DNA of 64,000 nt from Candidatus Woesebacteria bacterium. GTDB lineage: Bacteria; Patescibacteriota; Microgenomatia; UBA10105; UBA927. The number at the start of each line of letters is the position of its first letter. Positions within the stretch are counted from its first letter, which is position 1. The stretch lies in contig JAGORV010000003.1 in assembly GCA_018062625.1 (NCBI GenBank), positions 12,007 to 76,006 on the forward strand, given 5' to 3'. Shown one piece after another: positions 1 through 8,490 of the stretch. The notes beneath the pieces were generated by a model. It searched no databases. It saw only the letters and a program-made list of their open reading frames with translations, and was not told the origin of the DNA. The position numbers were made by a program, and so were the translations under genes.

Positions 1-157
1 GTTTTGTTTTTTTGACTGCTTTTCGATATAGCGGATGTCGTGAAACATGCACCATTTCGACGATAATCGTTTTTTGCATCTTCATAGACACCACTTTTGC
101 GGTGATATCTTTTCGTCCTTTTTTCTCAATTTCTTTTGTACCTGCTGCTTGTTTCAT
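1..157 (-). CDS. rpsQ: 30S ribosomal protein S17 (5' part; gene runs off the window start)
   Basis: Not in ORF track because open-ended. My reverse-strand translation from ATG at 157-155: MKQAAGTKEIEKKGRKDITAKVVSMKMQKTIIVEMVHVSRHPLYRKAVKKTK. S17 pattern VVS.KM.KT..V......HP.Y.K. Starts 5 nt after rpmC stop, canonical L29-S17 order. Confidence 0.8.
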   Translation of the reverse strand, partial: MKQAAGTKEIEKKGRKDITAKVVSMKMQKTIIVEMVHVSRHPLYRKAVKKTK

Positions 158-161
158 AATA

Positions 162-371
162 TTACCTTTCTGCTGCAAGCTCTTTTGCTCGTATAATCGT
201 ACGGATAAATGCTAATTTTCTTCTCATAGTACCAATAAATCTTGTATTTTTTACATTTGTATGAGTACGCTTAAGCATATCATCAATAATCTGTCGCTTT
301 AGTTCTCCGGCTTTTTTCCAAAGATCTGCAACGGAAAATCCCATTAACTGTTCTTTTTCTGATGTTTTCAT
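162..371 (-). CDS. rpmC: 50S ribosomal protein L29
   Basis: 69-aa helical basic ORF between rplP and rpsQ; 4-nt overlap with rplP stop; operon position. Confidence 0.85.
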
Positions 372-784
372 ATTAAACCCTCTCGACTAACAAATTTTGT
401 ACGAATTGGTAATTTGATAGCTGCGAGCCGCATAGCTTCCGCTGCTGCTTCACGACCGACTCCACTCATCTCAAACATCATGCGTCCCGGCCTAACCACT
501 GATACATATTCTGCCACATCACCTTTACCACTTCCCATACGTGTTTCTGGTGGCTTTTTCGTGATTGGTTTATCTGGAAAAATTCTAATCCAAATACGCC
601 CTCCACGACGAATACTATGAGTAAGCGCTCGCCTTGCCGCTTCAATTTGACGACTGCTGACCCAACCTGCGGTCATAGCCTTCAGGCCAAAATCACCAAA
701 AGACACTTCACTCCCTCGGATAGATACTCCACGCATCTTTCCTCGAAACTGTTTACGATGTTTTGCTCGTTTTGGTGCTAACAT
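368..784 (-). CDS. rplP: 50S ribosomal protein L16
   Basis: [20 protein letters not shown]-terminus typical of L16; operon position. Confidence 0.95.
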
Positions 785-786
785 AA

Positions 787-1461
787 TTATTTGCTAAATT
801 TACTTATCCAAACCTTAATACCTACATATCCTGATTTCGTTAATGCTGGTACTTCTGCGTAATCTACATCTTCTCGAATAGTTGATAGCGGAATAGATCC
901 AATTTTGTAGATCTCGCGTCGGGCAATTTCTGCTCCAGCTATACGACCTGCAAGTTTGATCTTGACTCCTTTTGCCCCTGCACTCATAACTCGCTCCAAT
1001 GTCTGATTACAAATACGTTTGTGTGGCATACGTTTGATCATTTGATCGCCAATATTTGTCGCCACCAAAAATGCACTCAAGTTTGGTTCTTTCACTGGTT
1101 CAACTACCACTTCTACTTTTGTTTTTGTCGGATCATAAACACTTTTATCTAATTTCTTCTCTCGAGCTATTTTCATGATTGCCTGTTCAACGTATTTCTT
1201 TATTTCTTCAAGTCCTGATCCACCACGACCTATTACCATACCAGGACGAGATACATGAAGGATAATCTTCACTTTGTTTATCGATCGTTCAATCTCTGTC
1301 TTAGCAAGTCCAGCTGGTTTAAGTTTGACACCCAAAACTTCTCGCAATTTTATATCCTGAATCAGTAATCCAGAATATCGTTTGTCGTCAGCAAACCAAC
1401 GAGATCCCCAAGTATATAAGGGTCCGAGTCTAAAACCATGTGGATTTATTTTTTGTCCCAT
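787..1461 (-). CDS. rpsC: 30S ribosomal protein S3
   Basis: [13 protein letters not shown] start and KH-domain core typical of S3. Confidence 0.95.
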
Positions 1462-3915: not shown

Positions 3916-4548
3916 TTATTTCTTCGCTGGTTCTTTGGCTACCACAAGAAGTCCATTGACTCCTCCTGGAACCACACCTTTTACATACAAAATACGTTTT
4001 TCTGCGTCTACTGATACTACTTTTAACCCTCGTACGGTCACTGTTTCATTTCCCATTCGCCCTGCCATTCGTTTTCCAGGATATACACGTCCTGGAGTAG
4101 TCGTTTGACCTATAGACCCTGGTGCACGTTCTCGATCAGATTGACCATGAGTTCTCGGTCCACCTTTAAAGTGATGTCGCTTCACGACTCCAGCAAATCC
4201 TTTTCCTTTGGATGTTCCAATAACACGAATTTTATCCCCTGCTGCAAAAATAGAATCTACTGCAACTTCGGTGCCAACTTTTTCATTTTCACCGATATCT
4301 GTGACTCGAAAACTGCGTAAAAAACGGAGCTTTTGTGTGAGCCCCGCTTTTTTTAAATGTCCTTCTTCTGGTTTAGTAAGATTTTTGGTGACACCGAATC
4401 CAAGTTGGATATTCTTATATGTCGGCATCTCATCAATCTGCGTAATCCAGTTAGGACCCACAGAAATAGCCGTGACAGGAATTCGCATTCCGCTTTCGGT
4501 AAATGCTTGAGACTGACCAATTTTTGTGCCTAACAATGCTGTGATCAT
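3916..4548 (-). CDS. rplC: 50S ribosomal protein L3
   Basis: GKGFAGVVKRHHF motif; operon position. Confidence 0.95.
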   Translation of the reverse strand: MITALLGTKIGQSQAFTESGMRIPVTAISVGPNWITQIDEMPTYKNIQLGFGVTKNLTKPEEGHLKKAGLTQKLRFLRSFRVTDIGENEKVGTEVAVDSIFAAGDKIRVIGTSKGKGFAGVVKRHHFKGGPRTHGQSDRERAPGSIGQTTTPGRVYPGKRMAGRMGNETVTVRGLKVVSVDAEKRILYVKGVVPGGVNGLLVVAKEPAKK

Positions 4549-4560
4549 AATGTCTTTTCC

Positions 4561-4587
4561 AAAAAAAAACGACCTCGGTTGAGGTCG
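4561..4587 (-). terminator. Intrinsic-terminator-like hairpin plus U9 tract, 12 nt upstream of the rplC start (attenuator candidate)
   Basis: Reverse strand reads CGACCTC-AACC-GAGGTCG (7-bp stem, 4570-4587) followed by TTTTTTTTT (4561-4569), then GGAAAAGACATT-ATG. Confidence 0.7.
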
Positions 4588-4674
4588 TCTTCCAATCCAT
4601 TTGGAAGGCTCATCCGAGACTTTTGGCTTACTTATATACTTTGTTTAAACAAAGCGTCATATCAATCTAATCCA

Positions 4675-4703
4675 AGTATACCAGAGTATCTCATTTGAAG
4701 CAA
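4675..4703 (-). promoter_or_regulatory. Candidate internal promoter for the rplC cluster
   Basis: Reverse strand: TTGCTT (4703-4698), 17-nt spacer, then TGgTATACT extended -10 (hexamer 4680-4675). Confidence 0.35.
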
Positions 4704-4716
4704 TTTTTCTTGCTTC

Positions 4717-5025
4717 TTACATTTTTATCTCGACATCAACTCCTGCTGGCAAATCCAAATGCATGAGCTGGTCGATCGTCTTGTCTGTAGGTTCCACAAT
4801 GTCGATAAGTCGTTTGTGCGTTTTAATCATAAAATCTTCTCGACTATTTCTGTCGATAAAGGTAGCACGTGCTACATTGAAATGTTGCTTATCTGTAGGA
4901 AGAGGTACTGGACCTACCACTCGTGCACCTGTGCGCACTGCAGTATCCAATATCTTTTGGCAACAATCATCTATGATTCTACTGTCGTACGCTTTTAAGC
5001 GTACTCGTATACGACCTTTTGGCAT
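4717..5025 (-). CDS. rpsJ: 30S ribosomal protein S10
   Basis: RIRVRLKAYD... typical S10. ATG at 5025 preferred; the track start at 5046 is a TTG codon. Confidence 0.93.
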   Translation of the reverse strand: MPKGRIRVRLKAYDSRIIDDCCQKILDTAVRTGARVVGPVPLPTDKQHFNVARATFIDRNSREDFMIKTHKRLIDIVEPTDKTIDQLMHLDLPAGVDVEIKM

Positions 5026-5071
5026 TGTTTTATTAAGGTACCCCAAACGTTTTTAGACGAGCTAAAACTGC

Positions 5072-6259
5072 TTAGGCTATAATTTTTGTAATAACTCCAG
5101 CTCCAACTGTGTGTCCACCTTCTCGGATAGCAAATCGAAGTCCTTCTTCGAGCGCTACAGCAACGATAAGTTTGACCACCATTTTGGTACTGTCTCCTGG
5201 CATAACCATCTCAACTCCTGCTGGAAGTGTAACTTCTCCAGTCACGTCAGTTGTTTGAATGTAGAATTGTGGTCTGTAGCCTGTAAAGAATGGTGTATGT
5301 CGTCCACCTTCTTCTTTATTAAGTACGTACACTTCTGCTTCAAATTCTGTGTGTGGTTTGACTGATCCAGCCGCTGCCAACACTTGACCACGCTCAACTT
5401 GCTCTTTTTCGACACCTCGAAGTAATACTCCGACGTTATCTCCTGCAAGTCCTTCGTCCAATGTTTTACGGAACATTTCAACTCCTGTAACAACAGTAGA
5501 CTGTGTAGGTTTGATACCAACAATTTCGATGGTTTCTCCGACCTTCACTTTTCCTCGAGTTACACGACCTGTCACCACTGTTCCTCGTCCTTTGATAGAA
5601 AATACGTCTTCTACAGGCATAAGGAATGGCTTATCAAGTTCTCGTTTTGGTTCTGGGATGTATTCATCCACAGTTTTCATGAGCTCTAGAATAGAAGCTT
5701 CTGCTTCCGCATCTCCTTGCAATGCTTTAAGCGCACTACCTCGGATGACAGGAATCTGATCTCCTGGATATTGATACTTGGTCAAAAGCTCACGAACTTC
5801 CATTTCCACAAGATCCAAGAGCTCTTTGTCCTGTACCATATCGCATTTGTTCATAAATACGACGATACCTGGAACGTTTACTTGCTTTGCAAGCAAGATG
5901 TGTTCTCGGGTTTGTGGCATTGGACCATCTGGTGCTGACACAACGAGGATTGCTCCATCCATTTGTGCGGCTCCTGTGATCATGTTTTTGACGTAGTCAG
6001 CATGTCCTGGGGCGTCAATGTGTGCATAGTGACGATTTACTGTTTCGTATTCTGAGTGATGGATGTTGATGGTAACGCCACGTGCTTTTTCTTCTGGGGC
6101 GTTATCGATTTCATCGTACTTCAATGCTTTTGCCATACCTGATTTTGCAAGTACGGTAGTAATAGCTGAGGTAAGTGTAGTCTTACCATGGTCAACGTGA
6201 CCAATGGTTCCAATATTTAAATGTGGCTTGCTTCGAACAAATTTAGTTGCGTCTGCCAT
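5072..6259 (-). CDS. tuf: Elongation factor Tu
   Basis: [18 protein letters not shown] and NKCD motifs. ATG 6259 (MADATKF) is preceded by GGAGG (6267-6271) at 7 nt. Confidence 0.97.
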
Positions 6260-8462: not shown

Positions 8463-8490
8463 CAACACATATCAACAAGGCATTATGAGT

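What the first reader, a model, noticed from the sequence alone, without database searches (positions are those of the whole stretch)
4549..4716. Highly structured 168-nt spacer with a canonical terminator inside the S10 operon, between rpsJ and rplC
rpsJ and rplC are normally nearly contiguous. On the reverse strand this spacer contains, in order:
- a hairpin GAAGCAA-N6-TTGCTTC (4697-4716) right after the rpsJ stop
- an extended -10-like TGGTATACT (4675-4683) with TTGCTT 17 nt upstream
- a 16-nt palindrome CTTTGTTTAAACAAAG (4639-4654)
- a hairpin CTTCCAA-N5-TTGGAAG (4589-4607)
- a textbook intrinsic terminator CGACCTC-AACC-GAGGTCG plus U9 (4561-4587), ending 12 nt before the rplC ATG

This resembles the E. 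coli S10-operon leader, where L4 controls termination at an attenuator hairpin. Here it is relocated downstream of rpsJ, which is attached to fusA-tuf instead.
Basis: partly seen in the sequence, partly recalled or inferred. Interest (0 to 1): 0.55.

Follow-up and report, generated by a model that had tools for sequence, protein, structure and literature searches.

The report
S8-mimic attenuator before rplC
The spacer between rpsJ and rplC in this candidate-phyla-radiation bacterium is a conserved RNA switch (sensor helix, antiterminator, terminator). Its invariant core copies the 16S rRNA binding site of ribosomal protein S8, so S8 probably shuts off transcription of the ribosomal-protein cluster that encodes it.

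Summary
The window comes from a Gottesmanbacteria-like member of the Microgenomates (CPR).

In 46 distinct relatives the region directly upstream of rplC carries one conserved motif:
- P1: 5'-GAGAUACUYUGG ... CCARAAGUCUC-3'.
- Antiterminator strand GUCUCGGAUGAG, complementary to CUCAACCGAGGU inside the terminator.
- A canonical terminator with U7-9, 0-20 nt before the rplC ATG in most relatives (88-154 nt in six).

The 11 invariant P1 nucleotides (GAUACU / AAGUC) are identical to the S8-binding core of 16S helix 21 (G639-U644 / A595-C599). They have the same strand order as the E. coli spc-operon S8 operator. In relatives rpsH lies about 6 kb downstream in the same tightly packed cluster.

Best model: S8 locks P1, the antiterminator cannot form, and the terminator stops transcription. 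This is an S8-sensing attenuator, not an L4 / E. coli S10-leader homologue.

The "extended -10" is probably a real promoter: TTGnnn-17 nt-TATACT is conserved in 26 of 27 long-form relatives. It lies inside the sensor, so its transcripts should escape S8 control.

The other three hairpins are lineage-variable. No experiment exists, and S8 binding is inferred from mimicry.

The parts
4717..4719 (-). rpsJ stop codon (TAA)
   Evidence: In 10 of the 14 short-form relatives whose rpsJ stop is on the locus, the stop overlaps or abuts the first nucleotide of P1.
4697..4716 (-). Hairpin GAAGCAA-N6-TTGCTTC. Specific to this organism and not part of the conserved motif. Its 3' arm carries the -35 box.
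   Evidence: Present. Absent or different in relatives.
4698..4703 (-). -35-like TTGCTT of the internal promoter
   Evidence: TTGnnn lies exactly 17 nt upstream of TATACT in 26 of the 27 long-form relatives that have room for it.
4681..4692 (-). P1 5' strand GAGAUACUCUGG. Contains the S8-core 5' half GAUACU (4690-4685), which corresponds to 16S G639-U644.
   Evidence: GAUACU is invariant in all 44 aligned sequences and, apart from one alignment gap (L128), in the 46 distinct CM matches. It is identical to E. coli 16S 639-644. The S8 core definition comes from PMC4176348.
4675..4683 (-). Extended -10-like TGGTATACT. TGG is also the top of P1b.
   Evidence: TATACT is present in 32 of 47 relatives (the long form) and absent in the short form.
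4633..4663 (-). P2 insert hairpin (GAUAUGACG ... AUAU), with the 16-nt palindrome 4654-4639 at its tip. It sits in the loop closed by P1b.
   Evidence: The 5' box YUGAUAUGACGCG is conserved in the long form. The distal stem varies in sequence but is kept as a hairpin.
4616..4626 (-). P1b/P1 3' strand CCAAAAGUCUC. Contains the S8-core 3' half AAGUC (4622-4618), which corresponds to 16S A595-C599.
   Evidence: The core is invariant. Compensatory changes occur in P1b, for example 13:109 as GC 29, AU 4, UA 3, GU 4, UG 3 and CG 1.
4609..4620 (-). Antiterminator 5' strand GUCUCGGAUGAG. It overlaps the P1 3' strand by 5 nt.
   Evidence: A 12-nt duplex with 4583-4572 containing one A.A mismatch. 82% of cells are paired against 35-47% in slid controls. 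Duplex energy beats hairpin-preserving shuffles in most terminator families. It is the MFE structure of the nascent transcript.
4589..4607 (-). Variable hairpin CUUCCAA-N5-UUGGAAG inside the antiterminator loop
   Evidence: Unrelated hairpins occupy the same position in about 10 relatives and are absent in the others.
4570..4587 (-). Terminator hairpin CGACCUC-AACC-GAGGUCG. Nucleotides 4583-4572 form the antiterminator 3' strand.
   Evidence: A hairpin is conserved in all relatives, with compensatory changes in 6 of its 7 pairs. Gene callers often translate it as TTSTEVVFF.
4561..4569 (-). U9 tract of the terminator
   Evidence: Relatives carry U5-U9.
4546..4548 (-). rplC start codon, the first gene of the regulated cluster
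   Evidence: L3, PF00297.

Best explanation
The spacer is a cis-acting transcription attenuator for the rplC ... rpsH ... secY ribosomal-protein cluster. Ribosomal protein S8 is most probably what it senses.

The RNA has three mutually exclusive elements:
1. P1 (4692-4681 with 4626-4616). This is a helix interrupted by an asymmetric internal loop whose 11 invariant nucleotides (GAUACU / AAGUC) reproduce the S8 site of 16S helix 21.
2. An antiterminator. Its 5' strand GUCUCGGAUGAG shares GUCUC with P1 and pairs with CUCAACCGAGGU inside the terminator.
3. A canonical intrinsic terminator (7-bp G+C-rich stem, tetraloop, U9) ending 12 nt before the rplC ATG.

Proposed action:
- When free S8 is scarce, the weak lower part of P1 is displaced and the antiterminator forms while the transcript is being made. 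RNA polymerase then reads into rplC.
- When S8 exceeds free 16S rRNA, it binds and locks P1. GUCUC is withheld from the antiterminator, the terminator forms, and transcription stops before rplC. That also lowers rpsH.

In the long form, which includes this window, a promoter (TTGCTT-17-TGGTATACT) lies inside the P1 5' strand. Transcripts started there lack the S8 site and are predicted to read through. S8 would then gate only the polymerases arriving from fusA-tuf-rpsJ.

Shown here: the elements, their conservation and covariation, the exact identity to the S8 core, and the position of rpsH in the same cluster in relatives.
Inferred: S8 binding, the direction of the switch, and promoter use.
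For: Conservation
- One motif sits directly upstream of rplC in 49 loci (46 distinct sequences) of the Gottesmanbacteria-type clade. In these relatives S10 is 85-98% and L3 60-76% identical to the window's proteins, while the variable parts of the spacer have diverged completely.
- The covariance model hits the window once (4563-4692, 100 bits, E = 3e-21). Nothing else in the 64 kb scores better than E = 0.4.

Structure
- P1 plus terminator: 95.3% of cells paired against 34-47% for slid partners. 11 of 17 pairs show compensatory changes. 0 of 500 shuffles reach the observed values.
- Antiterminator: 82% paired against 35-47% slid.
- Compensatory variants support the antiterminator (sequences):
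  - GUCUCGGAA : UUCCGAGGU in L096.
  - GUCUCGAAG : CUUCGAGGU in L106.
  - UCUCA : UGAGA in L109 against UCUCG : CGAGA in L098.
  - UCUCGCAAC : GUUGUGAGA in L001.
- Duplex energy beats hairpin-preserving shuffles at p <= 0.02 in 6 independent terminator families and p = 0.05 in a seventh.

Energetics in the window
- With the transcript ending at ...CCGAGG, the minimum-energy fold is the antiterminator.
- With the full terminator, the terminator state wins by 8.1 kcal/mol when P1 can form and by only 4.0 when the P1 5' strand is absent.

S8 mimicry
- GAUACU is invariant in all 44 aligned sequences and AAGUC in 43 of 44 (G in one, L095/L102-type CAGAAGUC excepted only at the flanking position); in the CM alignment the core pairs are unchanged in all 45-46 distinct sequences with letters.
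- E. coli 16S has AAGUC at 595-599 and GAUACU at 639-644.
- PMC4176348 defines the S8 site as a helix with seven conserved internal-loop nucleotides. These form the triples (G597-C643).U641 and A595.(A596-U644), plus the invariant A642. All are reproduced in the leader.
- The strand order matches the E. coli spc operator, A+80.(A+81-U+11).
- The core-plus-flanking-helix pattern occurs once in both strands of the window, at the leader. Shuffles give 0.14 per 128 kb.

Gene context
- In relatives L164 and L165, rplC ... rplE-(rpsN)-rpsH-rplF ... secY are co-directional with short gaps, and rpsH lies 6.1 kb downstream.
- Terminator-like sites in that stretch are not enriched over shuffles.
- No S8-like site occurs at rplE.
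- S8 of this clade keeps the VST..GVM and R-x-Y segments.
Against: - No binding or transcription experiment exists. S8 is inferred from mimicry alone.
- The organism's own 16S helix 21 could not be retrieved, so identity to its own rRNA is assumed from the universal conservation of the core.
- In the window's own form, the conserved promoter lies inside P1. The main rplC transcripts may therefore lack the S8 site, which weakens a simple autoregulation story.
- After removing the P1 5' strand, the equilibrium fold still keeps the terminator in 33 of 44 sequences. The switch must therefore be kinetic.
- The antiterminator complementarity is not significant in 5 minor terminator families.
- In the short form the rpsJ stop codon abuts P1. 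A terminating ribosome would melt P1 whatever S8 does, so translation may be a co-signal or the main signal there.
- The third serine of the E. coli S8 'STS' segment is proline in this clade.
Confidence: 0.6

Rival explanations
1. Translation-coupled attenuation without a protein ligand. A ribosome finishing rpsJ covers about 10 nt after the stop codon, which is the P1 5' strand. That frees GUCUCGGAUGAG to form the antiterminator. Untranslated or uncoupled transcripts form P1 and terminate. This would be a trp-like logic with rpsJ acting as the 'leader peptide'.
For: - In 10 of the 14 short-form relatives whose rpsJ stop is on the locus, the stop overlaps or abuts P1 nucleotide 1, as UAG|AGAUAC or UAA|GAGAUAC.
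- The P1 / antiterminator / terminator geometry fits a 1:2, 2:3, 3:4 scheme.
Against: - It does not explain why the internal-loop nucleotides are invariant and identical to the S8 site. A pure occlusion switch would let P1 covary freely.
- In the window and most long-form relatives the stop lies 7-157 nt upstream of P1, and 24 nt in the window itself. That is out of reach of a terminating ribosome.
- It can coexist with S8 sensing in the short form.
Confidence: 0.15
2. L4-mediated attenuation, analogous or homologous to the E. coli S10 leader. L4, or L3, encoded just downstream, would stimulate termination at the hairpin.
For: - It has a terminator hairpin in a leader preceding rplC-rplD.
- E. 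coli L4 is known to stimulate termination in the S10 leader (PMC3616713).
Against: - There is no similarity to the E. coli S10 leader beyond 7-mers at E = 1.6.
- The position differs: it lies 3' of rpsJ.
- The invariant core matches the S8 site, not the 23S L4 region. GAUAC at 23S position 319 sits in a different pairing context, and 5-mers at that frequency are expected by chance.
- The E. coli mechanism has no P1 / antiterminator switch.
Confidence: 0.07
3. An ordinary operon boundary. The terminator ends fusA-tuf-rpsJ transcription, a promoter restarts transcription for rplC, and the rest is incidental structure.
For: - Both a terminator and a conserved promoter-like element are present.
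- EF-Tu is generally needed in excess over ribosomal proteins (general knowledge).
Against: - The order is wrong. The promoter lies upstream of the terminator, so its own transcripts meet the terminator.
- Short-form relatives have no promoter at all, yet rplC must still be expressed through the terminator.
- P1 and the antiterminator complementarity are conserved and covary.
Confidence: 0.08
4. A small-molecule riboswitch or other RNA-binding factor uses P1 as its aptamer.
For: - The architecture resembles an OFF riboswitch (aptamer, antiterminator, terminator).
- There is no Rfam match, so an unknown class cannot be excluded.
Against: - The sensor is a simple helix with a 7-nt internal loop identical to a known protein site.
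- The short forms leave only a plain hairpin above it, with no pocket-forming junction.
- The context is exclusively ribosomal-protein genes.
Confidence: 0.03

Closest known systems
E. coli spc-operon S8 operator (the S8-interacting RNA at the rplE start)
   Same: - It mimics the 16S helix 21 S8 site within an r-protein mRNA.
- The strand order is the same: 5' GAxACU ... AAGUC 3'.
- The regulated unit contains rpsH.
- The leader core (GAUACU) is closer to the rRNA than the E. coli operator (GAAACU) is.
   Different: - The location is 5' of rplC, at the head of a fused S10-spc cluster, not over the rplE start codon.
- The output is an intrinsic terminator with an antiterminator, not translational repression with coupling.
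- The lineage is CPR, whereas the E. coli type is reported as restricted to Gammaproteobacteria (PMC3616713). Regulation elsewhere is described as unknown (PMC10931766).
B. subtilis r-protein transcription attenuators: L20 at infC-rpmI-rplT and L10(L12)4 at rplJL
   Same: An r-protein binds a leader structure that mimics rRNA, and this decides between antiterminator and terminator (PMC1865079 and PMC4538822, listed).
   Different: - The protein, the sequence and the phylum all differ.
- Here the sensor lies between two genes of a longer transcript, and in the long form it overlaps a promoter.
E. coli S10-operon leader (L4-interacting RNA)
   Same: An r-protein leader whose terminator hairpin precedes the S10-cluster genes, with control at the level of transcription termination.
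   Different: - No sequence similarity.
- It lies 5' of rpsJ rather than 3' of it.
- L4 with NusA stabilises a paused complex rather than switching P1 against an antiterminator.
- The sensor here matches S8.
trp-type leader-peptide attenuation
   Same: Three overlapping pairings (1:2, 2:3, 3:4). In the short form, a stop codon is placed so that a ribosome masks segment 1.
   Different: - The 'leader peptide' would be a full-length essential gene (rpsJ).
- There are no regulatory codons.
- Segment 1:2 is a protein-binding site.

Membership tests
S8-binding rRNA mimic (spc-operator type) | A helix interrupted by an asymmetric internal loop carrying the conserved A595, A596, G597, U641, A642, C643 and U644, flanked by the U598-A640 and C599-G639 pairs | tested here: met
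   The leader carries GAUACU and AAGUC, unchanged across the 46 distinct sequences apart from one alignment gap, and flanked by helices on both sides. They are identical to E. coli 16S 639-644 and 595-599. The definition comes from PMC4176348.
S8-binding rRNA mimic (spc-operator type) | rpsH belongs to the regulated transcription unit | tested here: met
   In L164 and L165, rpsH is co-directional and 6.1 kb downstream, with short gaps throughout. In the window itself the cluster runs off the edge at coordinate 1.
S8-binding rRNA mimic (spc-operator type) | The site overlaps the rplE start and represses translation | tested here: not met
   The site lies upstream of rplC. There is no credible S8-like site at rplE in L162, L164 or L165.
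S8-binding rRNA mimic (spc-operator type) | S8 binds the RNA | not testable with these tools
   This needs EMSA or filter binding.
E. coli-type S10 leader (L4-interacting RNA) | Located 5' of rpsJ | tested here: not met
   The element lies 3' of rpsJ and 5' of rplC.
E. coli-type S10 leader (L4-interacting RNA) | Sequence or structure homology to the HD/HE hairpins | tested here: not met
   blastn-short finds only 7-mers at E = 1.6. Rfam 15 has no model that detects even the E. coli leader, so Rfam gives no information here.
E. coli-type S10 leader (L4-interacting RNA) | L4- and NusA-dependent termination | not testable with these tools
   This needs in vitro transcription.
Protein-dependent transcription attenuator (terminator / antiterminator / anti-antiterminator) | An intrinsic terminator immediately upstream of the regulated gene | tested here: met
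   The window has a 7-bp G+C-rich stem, a tetraloop and U9, 12 nt before the ATG. It is conserved, with compensatory changes in 6 of its 7 pairs.
Protein-dependent transcription attenuator (terminator / antiterminator / anti-antiterminator) | A conserved alternative pairing that excludes the terminator | tested here: met
   GUCUCGGAUGAG pairs with CUCAACCGAGGU. It is the minimum-energy fold of the nascent RNA. The signal is weak in 5 minor terminator families.
Protein-dependent transcription attenuator (terminator / antiterminator / anti-antiterminator) | The sensor structure shares nucleotides with the antiterminator | tested here: met
   GUCUC (4620-4616) is both the P1 3' strand and the antiterminator 5' end.
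Protein-dependent transcription attenuator (terminator / antiterminator / anti-antiterminator) | Termination responds to the ligand | not testable with these tools
   No experiment is available.
Sigma-70-type promoter (internal, long form) | -35 and extended -10 boxes at a conserved spacing | tested here: met
   TTGnnn-17 nt-TATACT occurs in 26 of 27 long-form relatives, with TG at -15/-14. The transcription start site has not been mapped.
Any Rfam 15 family | A covariance-model match | tested here: not met
   There are no gathering-threshold hits in the 64 kb. Over 4300-5100 only chance-level hits appear, at E = 5.5 and 8.8.

The most novel reading that the evidence does not exclude
This would be a previously undescribed uS8-responsive transcription attenuator, the first S8 autoregulatory RNA outside Gammaproteobacteria. 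It controls a fused S10-spc cluster from a site between rpsJ and rplC in Gottesmanbacteria-type CPR bacteria. In the long form a promoter is embedded inside the sensor helix, so only polymerases arriving from fusA-tuf-rpsJ are subject to S8 gating. In the short form the rpsJ stop codon abuts the sensor, so the terminating ribosome and S8 compete for the same RNA.
Probability: 0.5. Interest if true: 0.7.

Novelty: new variant of a known kind. Interest (0 to 1): 0.62.

Why it matters
A 2024 review (PMC10931766) states that how S8 and the spc genes are regulated outside E. coli and Vibrio remains unknown. E. coli-type r-protein leaders are reported as confined to Gammaproteobacteria (PMC3616713).

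Here an uncultured, genome-reduced CPR lineage shows an exact rRNA-site mimic for S8 wired to a different output (an intrinsic terminator) at a different place (the head of the whole S10-spc cluster). This is a clean case of convergent re-invention of r-protein feedback.

It is directly testable with recombinant S8 and in vitro transcription. It also offers a compact protein-responsive terminator switch of about 75 nt. Finally, it corrects gene models that extend L3 upstream through the terminator.

Tried and rejected
- Rfam, gathering threshold on the whole window and permissive threshold on the region: nothing found. A positive control then showed that Rfam 15 also misses the E. coli S10 leader and the spc operator. 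The negative result therefore says little about those two families.
- L4 mimicry. GAUAC at E. coli 23S position 319 and CGAUGAG at 366 lie near the L4 region. I rejected this because 5-mers at that frequency are expected by chance and the pairing context differs from P1.
- BoxA / NusB-S10 binding to GAUACUYUGG. Only about 7 of 13 positions match the consensus I recalled, so I dropped it.
- A 10-codon mini-ORF (AUGAGAUAC...). Its AUG is not conserved in relatives.
- An S8-like site at rplE in relatives. The GAAACU ... AAGUC hit in L164 lies 117 nt apart and is not paired in the fold.
- S8-core scans upstream of rplC in about 110 loci outside the clade gave only chance-level hits: L047 in a variable hairpin, and L052.
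- The covariance model found no members in other Microgenomates, other CPR or Chloroflexi.
- The equilibrium fold after deleting the P1 5' strand switches to the antiterminator in only about 11 of 44 sequences. I therefore examined nascent-transcript folds instead.
- The built-in terminator scanner did not list the 4587-4561 terminator. I do not know why; its stem may have been extended into the U tract. I verified the terminator by reading the sequence and by folding.
- I looked for a 16S gene among the held loci to compare the clade's own helix 21 and found none.

Full report
**Observation**

**Organism and comparative material**

L3 and S10 place the window in a Gottesmanbacteria-like lineage of the Microgenomates (CPR). 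A genome scan gave 80 loci from many phyla. A metagenome scan gave 80 more, of which L081-L128 are close relatives: S10 is 85-98% and L3 60-76% identical. Two further look-ups gave 20-kb contexts.

Across phyla the rpsJ-rplC gap is usually 9-50 nt. In Microgenomates it runs from 73 nt to about 1.9 kb.

**The conserved motif**

The spacers of the close relatives have diverged completely, except for one shared architecture:
- 5'-(R)GAGAUACUYUGG
- a variable insert of 10-76 nt
- CCARAAGUCUCGGAUGAG
- optional variable hairpins
- a terminator, most often ACGACCUCAACCGRGGUCG followed by U5-9
- the rplC ATG, 0-20 nt further on in most relatives and 88-154 nt in six

A covariance model built from 44 sequences (R1) gives these results:
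- One hit in the window (4563-4692, 100 bits, E = 3e-21), with nothing else better than E = 0.4.
- 49 hits in the clade, always immediately 5' of rplC.
- No hits in other Microgenomates, other CPR, Chloroflexi and so on.

**Secondary structure**

P1/P1b pairs the 5' block with the CCARAAGUCUC block, and the insert sits in its loop. On the model-based alignment, P1 plus the terminator are 95.3% paired, against 34-47% when partners are slid. 11 of 17 pairs show changes on both sides. 0 of 500 shuffles reach the observed values (one search gives the same picture on the MAFFT alignment). The short forms show that P1b simply continues into a hairpin of unrelated, covarying sequence.

**Antiterminator**

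GUCUCGGAUGAG (4620-4609) is complementary to CUCAACCGAGGU (4583-4572). That target spans the end of the terminator's 5' arm, its loop and most of its 3' arm. The duplex is 12 nt long with one A.A mismatch. This explains why the terminator loop and GGAUGAG are conserved in sequence.
- The pairing holds in 82% of cells, against 35-47% for slid controls.
- Lineages with different terminators carry matching changes:
  - GUCUCGGAA : UUCCGAGGU in L096.
  - GUCUCGAAG : CUUCGAGGU in L106.
  - UCUCA : UGAGA in L109, against UCUCG : CGAGA in L098.
  - UCUCGCAAC : GUUGUGAGA in L001.
- Against shuffles that preserve each terminator hairpin, the duplex is better at p <= 0.02 in six independent terminator families and p = 0.05 in a seventh. 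It is not significant in five minor families.
- In the window, the nascent RNA ending at ...CCGAGG has the antiterminator as its minimum-energy fold. Once the terminator is complete, the terminator state is favoured by 8.1 kcal/mol if P1 can form, but by only 4.0 if the P1 5' strand is missing. The device is therefore a kinetic switch in which P1 decides.

**What P1 is**

The nucleotides that stay unchanged across the clade are GAUACU on the 5' strand and AAGUC on the 3' strand. These are exactly E. coli 16S G639-U644 and A595-C599, the core of the S8 site in helix 21.

PMC4176348 describes that site as a helix interrupted by seven phylogenetically conserved internal-loop nucleotides. They form the triples (G597-C643).U641 and A595.(A596-U644), together with the invariant A642.

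Re-registered on that basis, the leader pairs are C-G, U-A, [U A bulged], G-C and A-U, then an unpaired A, then P1b. This register is 95.5% paired.

The strand order (5' GAxACU ... AAGUC 3') is that of the E. coli spc operator, A+80.(A+81-U+11). The leader core is closer to the rRNA than the E. coli operator (GAAACU) is.

A pattern requiring the core plus flanking helices occurs once in both strands of the window, at the leader. Shuffles give 0.14 per 128 kb. No such site lies upstream of rplC in about 110 loci outside the clade.

**The gene for S8**

[quoted passage not shown] All genes are co-directional with short gaps, and rpsH lies 6.1 kb after the leader. Terminator-like sites in that stretch do not exceed shuffles. 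No S8-like site lies at rplE. S8 of the clade keeps the VST..GVM and R-x-Y segments.

**Mechanism proposed**

Free S8 binds and locks P1. GUCUC is then unavailable, the antiterminator fails, the terminator forms, and the whole S10-spc cluster, rpsH included, is switched off before rplC. Without S8 the antiterminator wins during transcription.

This is the logic of the B. subtilis L20 and L10 attenuators (PMC1865079, PMC4538822), applied to S8. A 2024 review (PMC10931766) says S8 regulation outside E. coli and Vibrio is unknown. PMC3616713 limits the E. coli-type leaders to Gammaproteobacteria.

**Two forms, and two complications**

*Short form* (15 sequences). There is no promoter. In 10 of the 14 whose rpsJ stop is on the locus, the stop overlaps or abuts P1. 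A terminating ribosome would cover the P1 5' strand, so translation of rpsJ may favour read-through. That makes it a rival or an additional signal.

*Long form* (32 sequences, including the window). TATACT follows UYUGG, and TTGnnn lies exactly 17 nt upstream in 26 of 27 cases. The 3' partners of this segment are not conserved, so a DNA-level promoter explains the conservation best. Its transcripts would start around 4668-4670 and lack the S8 site. S8 would then act only on polymerases coming from fusA-tuf-rpsJ. This is inference; no start site has been mapped.

- 4716-4697 is specific to this organism and carries the -35 box.
- 4654-4639 is the tip of the long-form insert hairpin P2. The 5' box YUGAUAUGACGCG is conserved and the tip is variable.
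- 4607-4589 is one of several unrelated hairpins found inside the antiterminator loop.

**Comparison with the E. coli S10 leader**

There is no similarity beyond 7-mers. The position is different, and there is no P1 / antiterminator logic in E. coli. Rfam contains no model that detects either the E. coli S10 leader or the spc operator, so its silence on the window tells us nothing about those families.

**Verdict**

It is wrong about the family and the likely ligand. The element is a new variant of a known kind, an r-protein autoregulatory leader. S8 is the predicted effector at about 0.6 confidence, pending binding and transcription assays.

Noticed in passing
L002, L003, L004, L006, L008, L010, L023, L037, L048, L147 (the 200-250 nt upstream of rplC): Other Microgenomates also carry a promoter-like box (TTGCAT ... 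TATAAT), a leader of about 100 nt, and a strong terminator with an upstream complementary antiterminator segment just before rplC. This holds even where rpsJ is 1-2 kb away. They lack the S8 core and are not hit by model R1, so the sensor may be different.
   Followed up: partly
L039, L043, L047 (cyanobacterial MAGs), about 150 nt upstream of rplC: They share a conserved leader without a terminator: CUGUUUUCCAGUGUGGUUGAGCAG ... GCUGCUAAAGCCUGGUUGUGUUGUGUCAACGUGAAGCGGAGACGGGAUUAGUG. This may be a separate rplC leader.
   Followed up: no
L130, L134, L143, L150 (L3 about 50% identical), about 110 nt upstream of rplC: Another conserved leader: GCGCUUCAAAGGCA ... GGCGACCCGAAGGCAAAGAGGGCAACGC ... 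CGAGCGCAGUGGAAGCGAAGAGGGUGAAAUAUG. It has no terminator.
   Followed up: no
window 8519-8435 (minus strand): A promoter-like TGGACA-17-TAAAAT (8519-8491) is followed 27 nt later by the hairpin UCCCGC-UGG-GCGGGA plus UUUUAUUUUUU. That U-rich run directly abuts the probable fusA ATG (8435). The listed ORF start, TTG at 8478, is probably too far upstream. This may be a second attenuator or a 5' stabiliser. The fold z-score is only -1.05.
   Followed up: partly
L162 13371-19345 against window 1-1461 and L164: The ENA contig carrying an identical L3 is inverted from within rpsC onward (secY ... rplP on the opposite strand). The window and its relatives are colinear, so this is probably a misassembly.
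   Followed up: partly
Proteins P0006, P0011, P0027, P0032, P0039, P0046, P0075, P0077, P0090, P0094: Gene callers extend L3 upstream through the terminator, giving spurious N-termini such as ..TTSTEVVFF.. (= ACGACCTCAACCGAGGTCGTTTTT).
   Followed up: yes
L162 1-6113: rpsL-rpsG are separated from fusA-tuf-rpsJ by about 5.5 kb of unrelated genes, some on the opposite strand. The classical str operon is therefore split in this organism.
   Followed up: no
window 4692-4609 against E. coli 16S 637-667 (L161): Beyond the S8 core, the leader resembles the 16S strand CUGAUACUGGCAAGCUUGAGUCUCGUAGAG in linear sequence (GAUACU..GG ... AGUCUCG.(U)AGAG). That stretch is the helix 21 3' strand followed by the helix 22 5' strand. 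This may be chance, or a trace of origin.
   Followed up: no
L166 and L167 (E. coli spc operator and S10 leader): Rfam 15 returns no hit at E <= 0.01 on the E. coli regions that hold the classical S8 operator and the L4 leader. These families are evidently absent from the library.
   Followed up: yes
L128 2390-2498: A divergent relative (S10 85% identical) keeps AUCUCGGAUUGG paired with the terminator AAGCCCCCAUCCGGGGGCUU (p = 0.006). It has lost the GAUACU/AAGUC core and carries TATAAT instead. This may be a derived form that no longer depends on S8.
   Followed up: partly
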